Shown here: positions 136-24,757 of the stretch, piece by piece
Layout: the number at the start of each line of letters is the position of its first letter
Numbering within the stretch: the stretch's first letter is position 1
From: a virus
Lineage: Duplodnaviria > Heunggongvirae > Uroviricota > Caudoviricetes
Virus record (IMG/VR): IMGVR_UViG_2648501797_000006
Location: 1 to 24,757 of that record
DNA length: 24,757 bases
Strand: one strand, 5' to 3'
Notes under the pieces: generated by a model
Told to the model about the DNA's origin: nothing
The model's input: only the letters and a program-made list of their open reading frames with translations
Database searches by the model: none
Translations under genes and position numbers: made by a program

Positions 136-295
136 ACTTTCCCCACCCAGCATGCATACCTTTATGCCATAACTGAAGTTTATGTCTGTTATGAGCGAGG
201 AGCGGAAGTCCGCAATTGTTCTTGCAACTAGGGCAGCTAAAAGACATGGCAGGCAAATGTCTACATGTAGGATACACCTGCTATCATAAAGAATC

Positions 296-1075
296 TTAGT
301 CCTGAAGCATTTTAACTTTCTTCTCATGCTTTTTATATTCGCCATTTATCCATTCAGGTTCTTCCCGAATAGCTGATCGCATACAGTGTGTTGGGATATC
401 ATTCCAGAAAGCTGTAATCGCATCTGCAAACTCTATAAACTGTGTTTCTGTAACCTCAAGTTGCTCATGACGTAGACTAAATCTATAGCCTCCTGGAATA
501 TTGATATCCTGATAATACTCAGGATGCGCGATGGAAAGCTCCCGATGGGCATGGCCATCACCGTGCTTATAAACATTGACTACTTGGCGACAGGCATCGA
601 TTTTTTCGTAATAAGCCTTGCCGGTGATATCCATCCCAACCCATTCTAGAATTTCAATTAGCCTTGGGAAGCCGATGTCCCAGATCATCGATGTTACGGG
701 TTTAGAGTCGAGCCAATGGCTGAATTCACGGATACACTTTTCTCGAAGTTCCTTATCGAACTGGTGAAACATTCCTGCTGTCAGAGCAAGTGAAACCGTA
801 TTTTTCATATCACTGAGGGCAATCCAATGTGAAATTCCTTCATCATGAGCCTGTTCCCAGATAGCCCCCTCGTCGTCATAATCGGGGTCAAAACGCTTAC
901 CGGCGGCCTCATAGTAATCTTTTTCTTTCTGCCGAGCTTCAGCTTCAAGATCAGAATCGCTAAACTGCGAAAATAAACGTTTTCTGGCTTCAGAAACATA
1001 AAAATTGTGTTTGTCGAGGAAGTAAGCCCGATCAATGGTTGCAAAATAAAAAAGTGAAAAATCTTTTTCGCTCAT
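296..1075 (-). CDS. Hypothetical protein, 259 aa, no family recognised (candidate prophage cargo)
   Basis: Track ORF 296..1153; likely start is the ATG at 1073..1075 (MSEKDFSLFYF...), preceded by AGGGAG. Stop TAA at 296..298. Contains HGDGHAHRELSIAH (an Rx5H spacing). Confidence 0.6.
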   Translation of the reverse strand: MSEKDFSLFYFATIDRAYFLDKHNFYVSEARKRLFSQFSDSDLEAEARQKEKDYYEAAGKRFDPDYDDEGAIWEQAHDEGISHWIALSDMKNTVSLALTAGMFHQFDKELREKCIREFSHWLDSKPVTSMIWDIGFPRLIEILEWVGMDITGKAYYEKIDACRQVVNVYKHGDGHAHRELSIAHPEYYQDINIPGGYRFSLRHEQLEVTETQFIEFADAITAFWNDIPTHCMRSAIREEPEWINGEYKKHEKKVKMLQD

Positions 1076-1451
1076 GGGGATCTCCCTCGTTTCGTCAGTT
1101 CTACAAGCCCTTGGAAGTAGGCTGCTAATAAAGAAAAGATTACATTTGAACAACTGTGCAAGATAGCAGTACGCCTAAAGGTAGTGCAAGTATCCCAACT
1201 AAGGTAACGATGCGTTTTCAAATATATAACTTAACGCTCGCGATATCCGCTTCTGGCACGAGGCGGACAGAACATGTGGACATGACGTCAGCTCTAAGCG
1301 AGGAGCTGATGCTAGCGGGGTAGGTTCAGTACAATCATAGGAGAGATCCAAAGTGTGCAGACACTGACTAAATTAAAGAAAATAGCATCTACGCTATATG
1401 GATATTAATAATGTCTATGACGAATATCATTATACGGGTAATGACTCCAAC

Positions 1452-1955
1452 TTATTGATAGTGTTTTATGTTCAGATAATGCCCGATGACTTTGTCATGC
1501 AGCTCCACCGATTTTGAAAACGACAGCGACTTCCGTCCCAGCCGTGCCAGGTGCTGCCTCAGATTCAGGTTATGCCGCTCAATTCGCTGCGTATATCGCT
1601 TGCTGATTACGTGCAGCTTTCCCTTCAGGCGGGATTCATACAGCGGCCAGCCATCCGTCATCCATATCACCACGTCAAAGGGTGACAGCAGGCTCATAAG
1701 ACGCCCCAGCGTCGCCATAGTGCGTTCACCGAATACGTGCGCAACAACCGTCTTCCGGAGCCTGTCATACGCGTAAAACAGCCAGCGCTGGCGCGATTTA
1801 GCCCCGACATAGCCCCACTGTTCGTCCATTTCCGCGCAGACGATGACGTCACTGCCCGGCTGTATGCGCGAGGTTACCGACTGCGGCCTGAGTTTTTTAA
1901 GTGACGTAAAATCGTGTTGAGGCCAACGCCCATAATGCGGGCTGTTGCCCGGCAT
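1452..1955 (-). CDS. insB: IS1 InsB frame (transposase made as an InsAB' fusion by -1 frameshifting)
   Basis: 167-aa frame overlapping the insA 3' end, sequence ...[27 protein letters not shown]... typical of IS1 InsB. Confidence 0.9.
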
Positions 1956-2149
1956 CCAACGCCATTCATGGCCATATCAATGATTTTCTGGTGCGTACCG
2001 GGTTGAGAAGCGGTGTAAGTGAACTGCAGTTGCCATGTTTTACGGCAGTGAGAGCAGAGATAGCGCTGATGTCCGGCGGTGCTTTTGCCGTTACGCACCA
2101 CCCCGTCAGTAGCTGAACAGGAGGGACAGCTGATAGAAACAGAAGCCAC
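1874..2149 (-). CDS. insA: IS1 InsA (91 aa)
   Basis: Translation [43 protein letters not shown]... matches IS1 InsA from memory. Confidence 0.9.
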
Positions 2150-2515
2150 TGGAGCACCTCAAAAAGACCATCATACACTAAATCAGTAAGTTGGCAGCAT
2201 CACCAATCAAACGATAGTTTGCAATGACAATATAAACGTTTTCAGTGAGTTAAGCAATACTAGGAAATTATGAGACAGATTACGTCGCCTCCACCATAAT
2301 GATTAACGAACCGTACTTTTTGCAAAGTCCGCATCTGGCACATAGCAGACCAGAGACACTGGCGTAAAGCCATGGAGGATCGGTGGGAGGAGGTAAAAAT
2401 CCTCTCATGCAAAAAATACGCAAAATCGATAACAGTTGGAAATCATTCAATACTCGCACTATCGGAAGTTCACCAGCCAGTCGTAGCACGTTCTTGCATA
2501 CGACGTGCTACGGTT

Positions 2516-2911
2516 TCATTTATCTCCGACCGGAAACCTCTTATACAAAGTCGATATGCCAATATCATAGATGATCGCCACCTTCTGGCGAGGAACTCCT
2601 GATGCAATTAATCGTCCGGCCTGTGCCCATTGTTCTGGTGTAAGTTTGGGACGTCGTCCACCAATTCGTCCCTGTGCGCGAGCAGCTTCCAGGCCAGCTT
2701 TTGTTCGTTCAACAATCAGTTCTCGTTCCATTTCAGCCAGGGCACCCATCACATGAAAGAAGAAGCGCCCCATAGGCGTACTCGTATCGATGCTATCCGT
2801 CAGGCTCCGGAAGTTAACACCTTTCTCCCGCAGTTCCTCCACTAACCCAACAAGATGTCGCATGCTGCGACCGAGGCGGTCACGCTTTCAGACCACCAGC
2901 GTATCGCCTTC
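2516..2911 (-). pseudogene. Pin/Hin/Gin-family serine DNA invertase remnant: N-terminally truncated with an in-frame nonsense codon
   Basis: Track ORF 2516..2863 gives ...RSLTDSIDTSTPMGRFFFHVMGALAEMERELIVERTKAGLEAARAQGRIGGRRPKLTPEQWAQAGRL..., an invertase C-terminal two-thirds. Reading upstream in frame gives EGDTLVV-stop-KRDRLGRSM: TGA at 2888..2890 (complement) replaces the conserved Trp of GDTLVVWKLDRLGRS. Similarity ends near 2911, so the catalytic-serine N-terminus is absent. Confidence 0.8.
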
Positions 2912-3026
2912 AGATATGCATCCTTGCTAAACTTAGATCGCCGGTCACCAACTAAGCATGCAGTATGCGTTATGTTTTTTATTGCTCCCAGGGTAATGTG
3001 TCCACTAACTAAACAAGGAGATAGTG

Positions 3027-3578
3027 ATGCTGCATACTATGAATTTCACGGTGCCCGTAAATCAGTCCACCGTTAACGCTTTAATTAGCAATTGCCTTGG
3101 AGCTATCAATCAGGGGGCGACTGAGTTAAACATTTACATTTCCAGTCCGGGCGGTGACCTCGTTGCAGGTTTTACTGCTTATCACTTTCTAAAGGCCCTA
3201 CCAATCCCAGTAAAGACCCATAACCTTAGCAATGTTGAATCAGTCGCTAATATCATTTTTCTTGCAGGGTCTGAACGTAAGGCGAATCCTGGGAGTCGGT
3301 TCTTACTGCATCCTTTTCACTGGGGCTTGATGGGCCCAAGCGTGGATCACTCACGCGTCAGTGAGTGGAGCGCGTGTCTCAATAATGACCTGGAGCGTTT
3401 TGTCGATATTTTGGAGAGTCAGATTGAGCTCAGTAAGAGCCGCAATGAGTGGAAGGAGGTTATCTCCGCCGCCACCATAGCCAATGCCTCTACAGCTCTG
3501 GATTGGGGGATGGTTCACGAGGTTGCCGCCGCCACTTACCCGCAGGCACCCGGCACATACTGGTGGATTAACTGTTAA
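3027..3578 (+). CDS. ClpP-fold (peptidase S14-like) serine peptidase-like protein, 183 aa
   Basis: AAGGAG at 3015..3020, 6 nt before ATG 3027. ...ELNIYISSPGGDLVAGFTAYHFL...SNVESVANIIFLAGSERKANPGSRFLLHPFHWG parallels ClpP ...YINSPGGVITAGMSIYDTM...GQAASMGAFLL...RVMIHQPLGG, with Ser and His at the corresponding positions. Assignment from recalled motifs only. Confidence 0.55.
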   Translation: MLHTMNFTVPVNQSTVNALISNCLGAINQGATELNIYISSPGGDLVAGFTAYHFLKALPIPVKTHNLSNVESVANIIFLAGSERKANPGSRFLLHPFHWGLMGPSVDHSRVSEWSACLNNDLERFVDILESQIELSKSRNEWKEVISAATIANASTALDWGMVHEVAAATYPQAPGTYWWINC

Positions 3579-3737
3579 CATAATTACCTCTCAAATTTAA
3601 ATTGGGCAGAGATGCCAGCATCCAGGCTCGCGCCTGGACGATTGTCTGATGATGAAAAGTGCAGTTTAATCTGTGGCTGGATTATCTGGATGCACTGGAG
3701 CTGGTTGATACCTCCAGTGCGCCAGATATTGAATGGC

Positions 3738-4148
3738 CTACTCCTCCGGCAGTTCAGGCCAGATGACATCCGGTGCGGTGCTGGTATCTGTTGCCGTCAC
3801 AGCGTCGATATAATCCAGCACAACGTTAAGTCGGGTAGTTTCTTCTTGCGTCAGTTTGCGCCCGGCCTGCAGCTTTAACTGAATCACGCTGATATTGACC
3901 ATTGCTGCGTCTATCAGCGACTGTTTTTTTTGTTCAGCGTCAGCTACCAGTTCATCATGAGAACGTTCCGGAGGGAGCGGCGCAGTAAATACCCCGTCTG
4001 AATACCCCCAGCCGATTCCGGGATGCTCACTGATATCAGAAATATCAATGAGCTGCTGATTATCCGGCACTGTGAATTCAGCCTCGCCATCCCAGACAAT
4101 GACATTCACAACCATCCCATTTTCAATAACTGCATATGACGCATTCAT
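3738..4148 (-). CDS. Tail fibre assembly protein (Tfa/gpU-like)
   Basis: C-terminus ...LDYIDAVTATDTSTAPDVIWPELPEE is the conserved Tfa C-terminal motif. Start ATG (complement 4146..4148) follows GAGGAG and overlaps the upstream stop as TAATG. Confidence 0.7.
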   Translation of the reverse strand: MNASYAVIENGMVVNVIVWDGEAEFTVPDNQQLIDISDISEHPGIGWGYSDGVFTAPLPPERSHDELVADAEQKKQSLIDAAMVNISVIQLKLQAGRKLTQEETTRLNVVLDYIDAVTATDTSTAPDVIWPELPEE

Positions 4149-4624
4149 TATGCAAACTCCTCGATAATACAAATCCCAGCAGCACCTTTCCCGCCTGTCA
4201 TACTGGTTCCGCTATAACCGGCATCGTATGCGCCACCGCCACCTGAACCATATACCTTACCACTAACACCACCGCCAGCGCCTGCGCGTCCACCGCCCCC
4301 CCAGTACGATGTTCCGCCTTCACCGCTGACGCCGATATTTCCGGACTGACCGTCGCCTCCATTTCCACCAATGATGTTGATACCGCCAGTACTTGGCACA
4401 CCGCCGTTATCGTCTTCGGTCAGCTCGCTGATGACCGAAAAATCGAACTGATAAATCAGCTCATGACGATTCAGATCCAGCAGCGTGCCGCCGTCATAAG
4501 TAATCGGGTTACCGCACGCTTCCGGGTTCCAGCCCAGAATGGCCTTAAAGAGCATCTGCCGGATATCGTCCACCACATCATACGAGGCAAACTGACCGCG
4601 CTCATCACGCCCGTTCCAGCTCTT
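4148..4624 (-). pseudogene. Tail fibre C-terminal (receptor-binding, Gly-rich) fragment lacking its N-terminal portion
   Basis: Frame is open from 4624 to stop 4148..4150 with only an alternative GTG at 4576; the Gly-rich C-terminus is directly followed by tfa. Upstream is the terminase gene, not the rest of a fibre gene. Confidence 0.6.
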
Positions 4625-6104
4625 TCATCGGGTCGGACATGTTGGTGTAGTTCTGAATGATGGTGATGGGATTCAGGTCTTCATCAGCAAGGTCATGTGA
4701 CAGCCCGGTCGCCCCGAAGGGGTCGATGGGTGACTCGCTGACCGGGCTGATTTTGTTCGCTGCTTTGGCCTCTTCGAGGATGTAGCGATAATCCACCTCT
4801 GCACCATCGGTAACGGTCAGGACGCCCATTTCCACCCATTTCTGAAAGCGTTCGGCTGTCCGGCGATCTTCATTTTTCTCGACGCTGTACACCGTGTCAT
4901 ACGGTACCCAGAAACGCGGGGCCACACTGTAGTAATGCGTTTTACCGTCAATCTCGCGGGTATAAAGTCGCGCCATGCTGTTCATATCCAGCTTACGCGC
5001 CAGGTCAAAGGCCAGAATGCACGGCTGCCCCTCGAACTGCTCAAGGGTCAGTGATTTATCCTCGCAGCTCTGCCAGCTCACCAGGTTGAAATACGCCGAA
5101 CGCGCCGACACCCAGATATTGAGGTGTTTTGTTTTAAAGACGTTTGCCAGACGGGCGTTATTTTTCGCACGCTGCTGCTGACTTAACAAAAATTCGCGAT
5201 AAACCGACACGCCAATATTTGGATTGGCTTTTTCCAGCACCTGCGGGTCGGTCCAGTCGTCACCTTCATCAACGGTATAGATGATCCCGAACAGTTCATC
5301 GTTGGGCACCGAGCCGTTGAGCATCTCGATGACTTCCCGCCGCTTGTCGTAGCACGGCCCCTCAATGTTGTACCCGGCAGTAGTAATGGCCCACATCAGT
5401 GGCTGACGTCGCGCCCCCATCCCGGTAAGCATCGTGGTGTAAAGCGCATCGGTGGCGTGCTCGTGATATTCATCCACCACCGCACAGTGGGGTGATGATC
5501 CATCACCGGGGTTACCGATCAGCGGTTCAAACCGCGCGCCATCCTCCGGACGGTTCATGTTTGAGGCGTTAACCTCAATCCCGAACGCTTCCGTCAGCAT
5601 GGGCGTGCGTTTACACATCAGTCGCGCCGGGCGAAAGACTTCCCACGCCTGTTTCTCTGTCGTGGCACCGGAATACACTTCCGCGCCAAACTCGTTATCA
5701 CAGGCAAAACAATACAGGGCGACACCGGCAGAGATTGCCGATTTGCCGTTCTTACGGGGGATTTCGGTATACACCTCCCGGAAGCGGCGCAGCCGGGAGC
5801 CTTTATTGACCCAGCCAAACGCACAGCAGATCACAAAGAGCTGCCACGGCTCCAGCGTGATGGGCATCCTCTTGAATGCCCACTCACCCTTGGTGTGCGG
5901 CAACAGCTGAATAAATTTGGCGGCTCGTTCAGCCAGGTCCTTGTCGAAGCGGTAACGAAACGACTTACTTTTTTCCGCCATCAGGTCATCAAGATGGCGC
6001 TGGCAGGCCTGAATCACAAACTGGCAGGCCACAATCTTTCCGCGAAAGACATCCCGGGCATACTGATTGGCAGCATTTACGTTGGGGTAAGATTTCCGGC
6101 TCAT
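4605..6104 (-). CDS. Terminase large subunit (Terminase_1-like, 499 aa)
   Basis: 499-aa frame; its ATG overlaps the TerS stop as ATGA (6101..6104). Placed after HNH and TerS as in HK97-type packaging modules. Confidence 0.85.
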
Positions 6105-7595: not shown

Positions 7596-7889
7596 ATGAA
7601 AAAAATGTTGTTTTCTGCCGCTCTGGCAATGCTTATTACAGGATGTGCTCAACAGACGTTTACTGTTGGAAACAAACCGACAGCAGTAACACCAAAGGAA
7701 ACCATCACCCATCATTTCTTCGTTTCGGGAATTGGACAGGAGAAAACTGTTGATGCAGCCAAAATTTGTGGCGGCGCAGAAAATGTTGTTAAAACAGAAA
7801 CCCAGCAAACATTCGTAAATGGATTGCTCGGTTTTATTACCTTAGGCATTTATACTCCGCTGGAAGCGCGGGTGTATTGCTCACAATAA
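7596..7889 (+). CDS. bor: Bor lipoprotein (lambda bor homologue)
   Basis: MKKMLFSAALAMLITGCAQQTFTV...ICGGAENVVKTETQQTFVNGLLGFITLGIYTPLEARVYCSQ is near-identical to lambda Bor as recalled; lipobox LITGC; AGGA upstream of ATG 7596. Confidence 0.9.
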   Translation: MKKMLFSAALAMLITGCAQQTFTVGNKPTAVTPKETITHHFFVSGIGQEKTVDAAKICGGAENVVKTETQQTFVNGLLGFITLGIYTPLEARVYCSQ

Positions 7890-9261: not shown

Positions 9262-10314
9262 TTATTTCCCCACCAGTTCACTTACCTCTTTCACCGTCTG
9301 ATTAAACCGCTCTGACTCAAGTTCAACACCTAACGCCCGACGCCCCAGCGCCATTGCTGCTTTTATTGTGGAACCGGATCCCATAAAGAAATCAGCAACC
9401 AGATCACCAGGTCGACTACTGGCATTGATTATTTGCCGGAGCATATCCGCCGGTTTCTCGCACGGATGTTTACCCGGGTAGAACTGAACGGGCTTATGCG
9501 TCCAGACATCGGTATAAGGCACAGAGACTGATACGGAGAAATAGCGCCGGAGAGATTTAAACTCATCCAGCAATTCAGAATATTTGCGATTCAGTGAATC
9601 ATAAGATGCCACCAGCTGGTGGTGTGGTTGTTCCAGTTGTTGTTCCTGAAACTTCTCTGCCGCTATACGGGAAAACAGTGCCTGTAACTTCCGATAGTCA
9701 GCCTCATTCGGCAACTGCCACTGACTGGCACCAAACCAGTGGGAAACCATATTTTTCTTATCTGTGGCTTCGGCAATTTGTTTTGCCGTTATACCCAGTT
9801 CGGCACGAGCATCCCTGAAATACGATATCAGCGGTGCCATTATGTGCTGTTTGAGTTCCCTTTCTTTTGCCGCATAGTCGTCACTTTTGCCGCGATATGG
9901 CCCCTGGTAATGTTCAGCAAACAGAACGCGCTCTGTGGCAGGAAAATATGCGCGCAGACTTTCTTTATTACACCCATTCCAACGTCCGGACGGCTTCGCC
10001 CAGATGATATGGTTAAGCACGTTGAAACGTTCACGCATCATGATCTCAATATCAGATGCCAGGCGATGCCCACAGAACAGGTAAAGGCTTCCGGCAGGTT
10101 TTAACACCCGCCAGAACTGGGCCAGACAGTGGTCCAGCCACTTAAGGTAATCTTCGTCCCCTTTCCACTGATTGTCCCAACCGTTAGGTTTCACTTTGAA
10201 GTAAGGCGGATCGGTAACAATCAGGTCAATGGAATCATCAGGCAGGGACTGAATAAAATGCAGGCAATCAGCGTTGATTAAATCAACACTGTTTATTTTT
10301 ACAGTATTTTTCAT
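9262..10314 (-). CDS. Orphan DNA methyltransferase (DPPY motif, beta-class N6-adenine or N4-cytosine)
   Basis: IVTDPPYF near the N-terminus and SAM-binding FFMGSGST near the C-terminus (motif IV before motif I). No partner endonuclease recognised nearby. Confidence 0.85.
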   Translation of the reverse strand: MKNTVKINSVDLINADCLHFIQSLPDDSIDLIVTDPPYFKVKPNGWDNQWKGDEDYLKWLDHCLAQFWRVLKPAGSLYLFCGHRLASDIEIMMRERFNVLNHIIWAKPSGRWNGCNKESLRAYFPATERVLFAEHYQGPYRGKSDDYAAKERELKQHIMAPLISYFRDARAELGITAKQIAEATDKKNMVSHWFGASQWQLPNEADYRKLQALFSRIAAEKFQEQQLEQPHHQLVASYDSLNRKYSELLDEFKSLRRYFSVSVSVPYTDVWTHKPVQFYPGKHPCEKPADMLRQIINASSRPGDLVADFFMGSGSTIKAAMALGRRALGVELESERFNQTVKEVSELVGK

Positions 10315-23313: not shown

Positions 23314-23389
23314 TGGTGCCGATAATAGGAGTCGAACCTACGACCTTCGCATTACGAATGCGCTGCTCTACCAACTGAGCTATATCGGC
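23314..23389 (-). tRNA. thrW: tRNA-Thr (anticodon CGU), 76 nt with encoded CCA
   Basis: Reverse complement reads GCCGATATAGCTCAGTTGGTAGAGCAGCGCATTCGTAATGCGAAGGTCGTAGGTTCGACTCCTATTATCGGCACCA: D-loop AGCTCAGTTGGTAGAGC, anticodon loop TTCGTAA, T-arm GGTTCGACTCC. Confidence 0.9.
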
Positions 23390-23503: not shown

Positions 23504-24757
23504 TTACGCACGAATGGTGTAATCACCAATGCCGATCCACTTGTAAGTGGTCAGTGCTTCCAGCCCCATTGGGCCACGCGCGTGGAGTTTTTGTGTGCTT
23601 ACCGCCACTTCCGCACCCAGACCAAACTGGCCGCCGTCGGTAAAACGCGTAGAGGCGTTAACGTAAACAGCGGACGAATCCACTTCGTTAACAAAACGCT
23701 GGGCGTTGCGCATATCGCGGGTCAGGATCGCATCGGAGTGTTGTGTGCCGTGTTCACGAATATGGGCGATGGCATCGTCAAGATCGCTGACGATTTTGAC
23801 GTTCAAATCTAATGACAGAAACTCATCGTCATACTCTTCGGCTTTAACAGCAACCACCTTCGCAGGGCCTGCCTGCAACTGCGCCAGTGCAGCTGCATCT
23901 GCGTGTAATGTCACGCCGCTTTCCGCCATTTGTTTGCTTAATGCGGGCAGGAAGCTATCGGCGATGTTTTTATTCACCAGCAACGTTTCAACCGTATTAC
24001 ATGTGCTCGGACGCTGAGTTTTCGCGTTGACGATCACTTTTAATGCTTCAGCGATCTCTACACTTTCATCAACGTAAATATGGCATACGCCTATACCACC
24101 TGTGATCACCGGGATTGTCGACTGTTCACGGCACAGTTTATGCAAACCAGCGCCACCACGCGGGATCAGCATGTCGATGTATTTATCCATACGCAGCATT
24201 TCACTGACCAGCGCACGGTCAGGATTATCAATCGCCTGCACGGCACCCGCCGGTAAGCCGCAGGATTTCAGGGCGTCCTGAATCACCGCCACCGTTGCAG
24301 CGTTAGTGCGACACGTTTCTTTGCCACCGCGCAGGATCACCGCATTACCGGTTTTCAGGCACAGCGAAGCGACATCAACCGTCACGTTCGGGCGCGCTTC
24401 ATAAATCACGCCAATAACCCCCAGCGGTACGCGACGACGCTCAAGACGCAGGCCGCTGTCCAGTACGCCGCCATCGATTACCTGCCCCACCGGATCGGCG
24501 AGGTTACACACCTGGCGCACATCGTCGGCAATGCCTTTCAGCCGTGCGGGCGTCAGTGCCAGACGGTCAAGCATCGCTTCGCTAAGGCCGTTGGCACGCG
24601 CGTCAGCAACATCCTGCGCGTTAGCGTTGAGGATGATTTCGCTTTGTGCTTCCAGTTCATCGGCTATTTTTTCCAGTACGCGATTTTTTTCGCGGCTGGA
24701 GAGTTGCGCTAATTTATACGAGGCTTGCTTCGCGGCAATGCCCATTTGTTCCAGCAT
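23504..24757 (-). CDS. proA: Gamma-glutamyl phosphate reductase ProA (417 aa, start codon at the window edge)
   Basis: [38 protein letters not shown]... is E. coli ProA as recalled; stop at 23504..23506. Confidence 0.95.

What the first reader, a model, noticed from the sequence alone, without database searches (positions are those of the whole stretch)
2516..2911. Serine invertase inactivated twice: nonsense codon at the conserved Trp and loss of the catalytic N-terminus
The C-terminal two-thirds is a well-conserved Pin/Hin/Gin-type invertase. Upstream the frame reads EGDTLVV-stop-KRDRLGRSM with TGA at 2888..2890, and similarity ends ~20 nt further on, so the catalytic serine region is gone. 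Any invertible fibre segment here is frozen.
Basis: partly seen in the sequence, partly recalled or inferred. Interest (0 to 1): 0.45.

Follow-up and report, generated by a model that had tools for sequence, protein, structure and literature searches.

The report
Dead Pin invertase stub in prophage
This is the leftover last 72% of a phage DNA-invertase gene (the enzyme that flips a tail-fibre segment) that lost its catalytic front end to an inserted ClpP-like protease gene and also carries a stop codon, an ordinary pseudogene that RefSeq already annotates as such in identical prophages.

Summary
Window 2516-2917 (- strand) encodes residues 52-184 of a 184-aa Pin/Gin-type serine invertase: 92% identical to an intact E. 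coli PinE, and E 1e-63 to Mu Gin (PDB 3UJ3). TGA at 2888-2890 replaces the invertase-conserved Trp61 (TGG in intact alleles). Homology stops at 2916/2917. The first 51 codons, including the catalytic serine, are nowhere in the window.

The front end was replaced rather than simply lost. A roughly 0.7-kb block carrying a divergently oriented ClpP-like gene (3027-3578) took out the pin 5' end, the adjacent crossover site (pixR), the alternative fibre tip and most of the alternative tail-fibre-assembly gene (stub at 3630-3766).

The same pin'(TGA)-ClpP-tfa' block is found in 22 of 5426 complete E. coli genomes. It sits in e14-like, DUF2612-type and P2-like prophages, with a near-invariant core and mosaic flanks. 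The stop codon is therefore inherited, not a read error.

Full-length relatives keep one orphan pix site and an in-frame glycine-rich fibre, so their fibre is locked. This window has no pix site at all, and two further deletions removed the tail and head genes.

Verdict: an ordinary, already annotated pseudogene. Low interest.

The parts
2516..2917 (-). pin pseudogene: codons 52-184 of a Pin/Gin-type serine invertase plus its natural stop. It retains the C-terminal part of the catalytic domain, the E-helix and the HTH_7 DNA-binding domain.
   Evidence: tblastn against intact PinE: 92% identity, E 2e-80. Gin PDB 3UJ3, E 1e-63. Pfam Resolvase 79-144/145 plus HTH_7. PGAP pseudo-CDS at the same coordinates in the identical locus L001.
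2888..2890 (-). TGA nonsense codon at Trp61 (TGG in intact alleles).
   Evidence: Present in all 9 carrier sequences compared.
2882..2884 (-). Leu63->Arg (CGT) in the conserved KLDRLGR motif, a second derived substitution next to the stop.
   Evidence: Intact E. coli PinE, Gin and the intact Citrobacter alleles that share this 5' allele type all have Leu here.
2516..2863 (-). Residual 115-aa ORF starting at the internal Met70 (E-helix plus HTH). It is probably not expressed.
   Evidence: the ORF listing. No Shine-Dalgarno sequence upstream (sequence). No promoter-like site on the - strand between 2864 and 3100. Frameshifted to 73 aa in strain CT29.
2918..3026 (+). Foreign spacer that begins at the breakpoint in pin. 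It is unrelated to pin and carries the AAGGAG ribosome-binding site (3015-3020) of the ClpP-like gene.
   Evidence: Alignment with intact pinE. Sequence. Positions 2965 onward are shared with the pin-less ClpP locus L006.
3027..3578 (+). ClpP-like (PpClpP1-like, 183 aa) moron, oriented divergently from pin'. This is the gene that displaced the invertase 5' end.
   Evidence: Pfam CLP_protease, 5e-13. PDB 9UXT, E 5.5e-38. dN/dS of 0.05-0.09 and invariant Ser72/His95.
3630..3766 (+). 3' stub of the alternative (silent-side) tail-fibre-assembly gene. It marks the other edge of the replacement.
   Evidence: PGAP annotation of the identical L001. Homology to the L004 tfa 3' end in inverted orientation.
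3738..4172 (-). Tail-fibre-assembly gene on the expressed side.
   Evidence: Pfam Caudo_TAP, 1.5e-20. PGAP annotates 3738-4088 and flags it as incomplete.
4148..4409 (-). C-terminal glycine-rich fragment of the tail-fibre gene. Its N-terminal constant part and the pixL site lie in the 10.1 kb deleted from this window.
   Evidence: blastn against L003. Pfam Gly_rich_2. pixL is at L003 5844-5855.

Best explanation
This is a non-functional remnant of the pin DNA-invertase gene of an e14-like (Mu-type tail) prophage integrated at thrW/proA. In an ancestor, an illegitimate replacement swapped about 1.2 kb for a ~0.7-kb block carrying a ClpP-like protease gene on the opposite strand. The 1.2 kb comprised pin codons 1-51 (with the catalytic Ser and, by analogy with hin/gin, the Fis-dependent enhancer), the adjacent pixR crossover site, the silent alternative fibre tip and the 5' part of its assembly gene. 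That single event abolished fibre switching in cis and in trans, because it removed the enzyme, one crossover site and the alternative cassette together. The fibre stayed fixed in the glycine-rich orientation. The stub then picked up TGG->TGA at Trp61 and Leu63->Arg. The resulting pin'-ClpP-tfa' block later spread among unrelated prophages by homologous recombination through the conserved pin and tfa stubs. In this window the prophage decayed further: two deletions removed the fibre N-terminus with pixL and the baseplate, tail and head genes, and an IS1 inserted nearby. What is shown directly: the anatomy, the lesions, the absence of crossover sites and the population distribution. What is inferred: the order of events, the loss of the enhancer, and the mechanism of spread.
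For: Only PinE residues 52-184 are present, with a stop at W61. The intact comparator L004 has the order pinE, pixR (7833-7858), alternative fibre tip, tfaE, tfa, pixL (9679-9704), fibre. In the window and its full-length relative L003, the ClpP-like gene occupies the place of pinE-5'/pixR/fibre tip/tfaE-5'. The window has no pix-like site. L003 and the other carriers keep a single orphan pix core inside the fibre gene, and the L003 fibre is one continuous 308-aa ORF. The block occurs in 22 of 5426 complete genomes, always with the truncated recombinase. All 9 carrier sequences compared have the TGA. The core 2701-3737 differs by 0-2 nt among carriers, while the flanks are mosaic. Host backbones differ: e14-like, DUF2612-type and P2-like prophages, near thrW, dusA and dacD. 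pin' has dN/dS 0.075 against intact pinE, so inactivation was recent relative to allele divergence. Intact Citrobacter alleles of the same 5' type have W61 and L63. The ClpP-like gene has dN/dS 0.05-0.09, so it is the part under selection. Inversion needs both repeats, and other Pin paralogues can act in trans (PMC12529663).
Against: No reads were available, so the TGA is supported only by its conservation across independent assemblies. No intact ancestor allele was found: the closest intact E. coli pin is ~89% identical at the nucleotide level, and the Citrobacter alleles are ~82%. The pre-replacement structure is therefore reconstructed by analogy with L004. The order of truncation and nonsense mutation cannot be resolved, because all carriers have both. 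The residual 115-124-aa ORF from Met70 is open in 8 of the 9 carrier sequences, which does not by itself exclude expression.
Confidence: 0.92

Rival explanations
1. The stub is expressed from Met70 as a 115-aa E-helix plus HTH protein. This protein would bind pix/gix-type sites and act as a regulator or dominant-negative inhibitor of Pin-family invertases from co-resident prophages.
For: The ORF 2516-2863 is open and includes a complete HTH_7 domain. It is open in 8 of the 9 carrier sequences.
Against: There is no Shine-Dalgarno sequence before the ATG and no promoter-like site upstream on the - strand. The ORF is frameshifted in strain CT29. Its 3' half is a recombination mosaic of other pin alleles rather than a conserved unit. 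Its openness is explained by recent origin. The far more decayed Enterobacter remnants next to the same ClpP-like gene show no constraint.
Confidence: 0.04
2. The gene is intact in reality, and the stop codon and truncation are sequencing or assembly errors.
For: The window has other odd junctions (4409/4410 and ~4611) that no complete genome shares, so the assembly quality of the source is not guaranteed.
Against: The identical TGA and breakpoint occur in 8 fetched carrier loci from independent complete assemblies of different strains and prophage backbones. No sequence encoding Pin residues 1-51 exists in the window. The upstream DNA is a coherent ClpP-like gene with its own ribosome-binding site.
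Confidence: 0.01
3. The pin' and tfa' stubs are kept because they are useful, not merely neutral. They would serve as homology arms that let the ClpP-like cargo recombine into any prophage carrying a pin/tfa invertible-fibre locus.
For: The core is near-invariant while the flanks are mosaic, with recombination breakpoints inside pin' (2550, 2621, 2703) and inside tfa (~3876). The block sits in three different tail-module types. A ClpP-like gene also sits next to a pin remnant in Enterobacter P2-like prophages.
Against: Spread by flanking homology is expected for any insert in a conserved locus and needs no selection on the stubs. The locus in strain 100416 carries the ClpP-like gene with no pin remnant. 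Klebsiella and P22-like phages carry family members at unrelated moron sites.
Confidence: 0.15

Closest known systems
PinE of the E. coli e14 element and its invertible P segment (Din family: Hin/Gin/Cin/Pin)
   Same: The gene has the same position and orientation at the end of a Mu-type tail-fibre module: ymfQ, stfP, tfa, (tfa'), pin. Residues 52-184 are 92% identical to PinE. Relatives carry the same pix sequence, TTCTCCCAAACCAAGGTTTTCGAGAG, at the constant/variable boundary of the fibre gene. The repeat core matches the one reported for e14 (PMC12529663).
   Different: Codons 1-51 with the catalytic Ser are missing. There is a nonsense codon at W61 and a Leu63->Arg change. pixR and the alternative fibre cassette are absent, so no inversion is possible.
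Gin invertase of phage Mu (PDB 3UJ3 / 4M6F)
   Same: The sequence aligns over Gin residues 53-181 at E 1e-63, covering the end of the catalytic domain, the E-helix and the HTH domain.
   Different: Gin residues 1-52 have no counterpart, and the ORF is interrupted.
RefSeq/PGAP pseudogene 'recombinase family protein; internal stop; incomplete; missing N-terminus' (e.g. ABRO93_RS18935 in E. coli 123636)
   Same: The sequence is identical over 2400-3900 and the pseudo-CDS has the same coordinates.
   Different: None for the pseudogene itself. The window's prophage additionally lacks 15.3 kb of tail and head genes.
PpClpP1 of Pseudomonas plecoglossicida (PDB 9UXT). This is for the neighbouring gene that displaced the pin 5' end.
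   Same: The two align from residue 2 to 170 without gaps in the first 100 residues, at E 5.5e-38. Both have the short N-terminus, and the Ser and His of the triad are conserved.
   Different: This one is a prophage moron in E. coli. From the alignment, the third triad position appears to be neither Asp nor Pro (inference). No biochemistry exists for this protein.

Membership tests
Din-family serine DNA invertases (Hin/Gin/Cin/Pin) | N-terminal catalytic domain with the nucleophilic serine (Ser9/10) in the YxRVS motif | tested here: not met
   Only PinE residues 52-184 are encoded. Residues 1-51 (MLIGYVRVST...) have no match in the window. The Pfam Resolvase match starts at profile position 79 of 145.
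Din-family serine DNA invertases (Hin/Gin/Cin/Pin) | Uninterrupted reading frame | tested here: not met
   TGA at 2888-2890, in place of Trp61.
Din-family serine DNA invertases (Hin/Gin/Cin/Pin) | C-terminal HTH_7 DNA-binding domain and E-helix with invertase-type sequence | tested here: met
   Pfam HTH_7, 2e-12. Alignment with Gin 53-181. PHROG 125 'DNA invertase', 3.5e-50.
Din-family serine DNA invertases (Hin/Gin/Cin/Pin) | Two 26-bp crossover sites (pix/gix/hix) in inverted orientation flanking a segment next to the gene | tested here: not met
   The window has no match to the pix core or to the full site with up to 3 mismatches, and no suitable inverted repeat. The positive control L004 has both sites. 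Relatives keep only one.
Din-family serine DNA invertases (Hin/Gin/Cin/Pin) | Fis-dependent recombinational enhancer about 100 bp from one crossover site, inside the 5' coding region | not testable with these tools
   The DNA where the enhancer lies in hin/gin is absent here. That location comes from established knowledge; the ~100 bp distance from hixL is stated in PMC3798978. No Fis-site model was run.
ClpP / peptidase S14 (neighbouring gene 3027-3578) | CLP_protease fold with the catalytic Ser and His | tested here: met
   Pfam PF00574 scores 49.7 bits against a cut-off of 20.2. Ser72 and His95 are invariant in 51 family members. All NCBIfam ClpP equivalog models score far below their cut-offs, so this is not canonical ClpP.
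Known anti-phage defence systems (PADLOC 2.0.0), for the ClpP-like gene and the 285-aa ORF 296-1153 | A match to any defence-protein model | tested here: not met
   No hit at E <= 0.01.

The most novel reading that the evidence does not exclude
The pin'-ClpP-tfa' block may be a selected, horizontally mobile cassette rather than debris. In this reading, a short PpClpP1-like ClpP subunit has displaced the tail-fibre host-range switch of myovirus-type prophages. This may have happened more than once, since Enterobacter P2-like prophages show the same gene next to an older pin remnant. The gene would move between unrelated prophage backbones on the conserved pin/tfa stubs, and its product would co-assemble with host ClpP to alter proteolysis for the benefit of the lysogen, for example in phage exclusion or control of induction.
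Probability: 0.2. Interest if true: 0.45.

Novelty: already known. Interest (0 to 1): 0.13.

Why it matters
It matters little in itself. Truncated pin genes are routine prophage decay, and identical copies are already flagged as pseudogenes in RefSeq. The practical value is for annotation. This locus should not be scored as a phase-variable or invertible fibre system, and it should not count as a source of trans-acting Pin activity of the kind recently linked to phage T2 resistance (PMC12529663). The one mildly interesting by-product concerns what destroyed the switch: a conserved ClpP1-like moron under purifying selection that recurs at moron slots of several prophage types. That may deserve a functional test.

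Tried and rejected
- **The repeat finder on the intact comparator.** It did not recover the pix sites, because the imperfect 26-bp sites fall below the 9-nt seed. I replaced it with pattern searches, which found both sites in L004 and none in the window.
- **Defence function of the flanking genes.** PADLOC gave no hit for the ClpP-like gene or the 285-aa ORF.
- **A sequenced phage carrying the block.** None in 50,697 phage records; only intact invertases at 72-85% identity turned up.
- **An intact ancestor allele.** The closest intact pin in E. coli is ~89% identical.
- **One origin or two for the Enterobacter and E. coli pin'-ClpP junctions.** Pairwise identities do not decide the question.
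- **Base composition.** It does not mark the insert.
- **Literature.** I found no paper on ClpP-like prophage morons at fibre loci. The Johnson review on serine invertases is not held in the library.
- **K-12 pinH as the identity of this stub.** I considered this from memory and dropped it, because no K-12 genome is among the matches at 97% identity or better.

Full report
**Observation**

On the minus strand, window 2516-2983 translates to ...CISEGDTLVV*KRDRLGRSMRHLVGLVEELREKGVNFRSL...YKRFPVGDK*, with the internal stop at 2888-2890. An intact 184-aa PinE from E. coli 2009C-3133 (L004:7223-7777) aligns to the window only through its residues 52-184, at 2917..2519, with 123/133 identities and E 2e-80. 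The stop falls on Trp61. The fragment matches Mu Gin (PDB 3UJ3) residues 53-181 of 193 at E 1e-63, and Gin has Trp at the same column. Pfam sees Resolvase profile positions 79-144 of 145 plus HTH_7.

At the DNA level the intact allele reads TGG where the window reads TGA, and similarity ends at about 2916. The N-terminal 51 residues, including the YVRVS catalytic-serine motif, have no match anywhere in the 24.7-kb window (best E 1.6). The only adjustments are that the pseudogene runs to 2917 rather than 2911, and that homology continues 26-27 nt beyond the stop rather than ~20.

**What sits where the N-terminus should be**

From 2918 the sequence is unrelated to pin. It carries an AAGGAG ribosome-binding site at 3015-3020 and then, on the plus strand, a 183-aa ClpP-like ORF at 3027-3578 (Pfam CLP_protease 5e-13). 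Downstream lies a 137-bp 3' stub of a tail-fibre-assembly gene on the plus strand (3630-3766). It converges with a tail-fibre-assembly gene (3738-4172) and a glycine-rich fibre fragment on the minus strand.

The intact comparator L004 has the classical e14 arrangement: fibre constant part, pixL, fibre tip, tfa, then on the other strand tfaE, the alternative tip and pixR, and finally pinE. Its pixL is TTCTCCCAAACCAAGGTTTTCGAGAG at 9679-9704, and pixR lies in inverted orientation at 7833-7858.

Comparison shows that the ClpP-like block replaced pin codons 1-51, pixR, the alternative fibre tip and the 5' part of the alternative tfa. That is roughly 1.2 kb swapped for about 0.7 kb, a size estimated by analogy with L004. 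The central 263 bp of the convergent tfa/tfa' region is inverted relative to L004. The segment was therefore fixed in the orientation opposite to L004's.

**Is anything still invertible?**

The window has no match to the pix core with one mismatch, none to the 26-bp site with three mismatches, and no suitable inverted repeat. The full-length relative, strain 123636 (L003), is 99.9% identical. It retains a single pix core at 5844-5855, at the boundary between the StfP-type constant part and the glycine-rich tip. Its fibre is one continuous 308-aa ORF.

Most other carrier loci checked likewise have exactly one orphan pix core inside the fibre gene; L008, L009 and L013 gave no match with that strict pattern. 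Experimental work on e14 shows two things: deleting either repeat abolishes inversion, and paralogues such as PinQ can act in trans (PMC12529663). Here a trans-acting Pin could not help, because one site and the alternative cassette are gone. 'Frozen' is thus right for the lineage. In this window the question does not arise, because the remaining site and the fibre N-terminus lie in a deleted stretch.

**Not a read error, and not private to this strain**

The 713-bp ClpP block occurs in 23 of 5426 complete E. coli genomes. In 22 of them it lies next to the truncated recombinase. PGAP annotates that recombinase as 'internal stop; incomplete; missing N-terminus' in every locus fetched.

In an alignment of 9 carrier sequences (the window plus 8 fetched loci), all have TGA at the Trp61 codon. 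The core 2701-3737 differs from the window by only 0-2 nt. The 3' half of pin' shows up to 69/185 differences, and the tfa region shows 47/163 differences in some strains, so both flanks are mosaic.

The block sits in different backbones and chromosomal sites:
- e14-like prophages with ymfQ and baseplate J, next to thrW/proA and dusA
- DUF2612-type baseplates, next to dacD in strain BR1220
- P2-like tails with gpI and gpU

A single recent module has evidently been passed around by homologous recombination through the conserved pin and tfa sequences.

**Timing**

Against intact E. coli pinE the stub has 39 synonymous and 12 non-synonymous differences, giving dN/dS 0.075. Almost all of its divergence therefore accumulated while the gene was functional. 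The 5' part (residues 52-90) is a different allele type, with saturated dS. Its amino-acid variants (E54, G75, K83, V85) are shared with intact pin genes of Citrobacter, found with an exact 23-mer scan. Those intact genes have Trp61 and Leu63.

The changes specific to the pseudogene near the junction are therefore L52I, W61stop and L63R. The last falls in the conserved KLDRLGR motif. No intact allele closer than ~89% nucleotide identity (E. coli) or ~82% (Citrobacter) was found. Because every carrier has both the truncation and the stop, their order cannot be resolved.

**The gene that did the damage**

The ClpP-like protein is not canonical ClpP, since all NCBIfam ClpP models score far below their cut-offs. 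It aligns end to end with PpClpP1 of Pseudomonas plecoglossicida (PDB 9UXT, E 5.5e-38). PpClpP1 is an N-terminally short ClpP with a wide pore and a Ser-His-Pro triad. It forms hetero-tetradecamers with the canonical paralogue (PMC12900304).

The family is spread through Enterobacterales, and Ser72 and His95 are invariant in 51 members. dN/dS is 0.089 against the 87.6%-identical copy in E. coli 100416 and 0.051 against the Enterobacter copy. In the contexts examined it is a reverse-strand moron in a prophage:
- between gpU and tfa in Enterobacter P2-like prophages
- between the lysis and terminase genes in Klebsiella lambdoid prophages
- in the immI region of a P22-like phage
- next to DinI/HumD in strain 100416

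PADLOC has no model for it.

The Enterobacter P2-like loci also carry a far more decayed, frameshifted pin remnant directly upstream of the ClpP-like gene, and one orphan pix core in the fibre gene. Whether this reflects one ancient event or recurrence remains undecided.

**Further decay in this window**

Relative to strain 123636 the window lacks L003 5475-15592 and 15801-21004, so about 15.3 kb is missing. The lost genes include the fibre N-terminus, baseplate, tape measure, sheath, tube, head genes, portal and part of the large terminase subunit. A 208-bp island (4408-4615) remains, along with a chimeric ORF at 4148-4576. The junctions show only 2-5 bp of microhomology. No complete genome shares these junctions. 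An IS1 sits at 1437-2204 without a matching 9-bp target duplication. The prophage is therefore defective on several counts, and the pin stub is one lesion among many.

**Rivals**

- A functional 115-aa HTH protein made from Met70 is not excluded by ORF integrity, since the ORF is open in 8 of 9 sequences. However, it lacks a ribosome-binding site and a promoter-like site, is frameshifted in CT29, and has a mosaic 3' half. I give it about 4%.
- A sequencing artefact is effectively excluded by the cross-genome conservation.
- Selection on the stubs as homology arms is possible, but it is not needed to explain the pattern.

**Comparison and verdict**

By descent this is a member of the Hin/Gin/Cin/Pin invertase family. 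It fails the family's functional criteria: no catalytic serine, an interrupted frame, no pair of crossover sites, and no 5' region where the enhancer would lie. It is a pseudogene of a well-known kind and is already annotated as such in RefSeq for identical sequences. Nothing about it would surprise a specialist. Interest is low (0.13). The only lead worth a follow-up is the conserved ClpP1-like moron that replaced the switch.

Noticed in passing
window 4408-4615 (junctions at 4409/4410 and ~4611-4615); chimeric ORF 4148-4576: Relative to the 99.9%-identical prophage of E. coli 123636, two deletions (10.1 kb and 5.2 kb) remove the fibre N-terminus, baseplate, tail, head and portal genes and part of the terminase. 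They leave a 208-bp island of the tail-terminator gene fused in frame to the glycine-rich fibre fragment. The junctions have only 2-5 bp of microhomology, and none of 5426 complete genomes shares them. This is either a private deletion or an assembly artefact.
   Followed up: partly
window 3027-3578 (+): A ClpP-like 183-aa moron homologous to the atypical short ClpP1 of Pseudomonas plecoglossicida (PDB 9UXT). It is under strong purifying selection (dN/dS 0.05-0.09) with invariant Ser72/His95. Family members sit on the reverse strand at moron slots of P2-like, lambdoid, P22-like and e14-like prophages across Enterobacterales. There is no PADLOC model for it.
   Followed up: partly
L014-L017, positions 4600-5000 (Enterobacter P2-like prophages): A much more decayed pin remnant, with frameshifts and indels, lies directly upstream of the 83%-identical ClpP-like gene. 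It is 5'-truncated within a few codons of the E. coli breakpoint, and one orphan pix core remains in the fibre gene. One ancient event or recurrence at a fragile spot is unresolved.
   Followed up: partly
window 1437-2204 (-): A complete 768-bp IS1 with exact terminal inverted repeats lies 312 bp downstream of the pin stub. Its flanking 9-mers (CATTATACG / AATCAAACG) do not match, so there is no simple target-site duplication. That suggests an IS1-associated rearrangement. The IS1 is present in only 6 of the carrier genomes.
   Followed up: partly
window 207-2517; L004 6166-7220: The region just 3' of pin is a variable cargo slot. Here it holds a 285-aa ORF (296-1153, PHROG 19541, unknown function) plus IS1. 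Other strains carry a LEM-3-like GIY-YIG nuclease, DUF4145, DinI or a cytosine methyltransferase there. In L004 the GIY-YIG gene is bracketed by two copies of the ~35-bp pin terminator-hairpin region (window 2482-2516), and similarity breakpoints in other carriers cluster at 2482-2487.
   Followed up: partly
window 3661-3923: The convergent 3' ends of the two tail-fibre-assembly genes match the intact comparator L004 (8772-9034) only in reverse orientation. The former invertible segment was therefore fixed in the opposite orientation to L004.
   Followed up: no
window ~7596-7889 (+), ~23314-23389, 23504-24757 (-): By coordinate mapping to the annotated strain 123636, the window also carries an iss (increased serum survival, bor-like) lipoprotein gene, the thrW tRNA-Thr attachment site next to the prophage integrase, and proA.
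   Followed up: no
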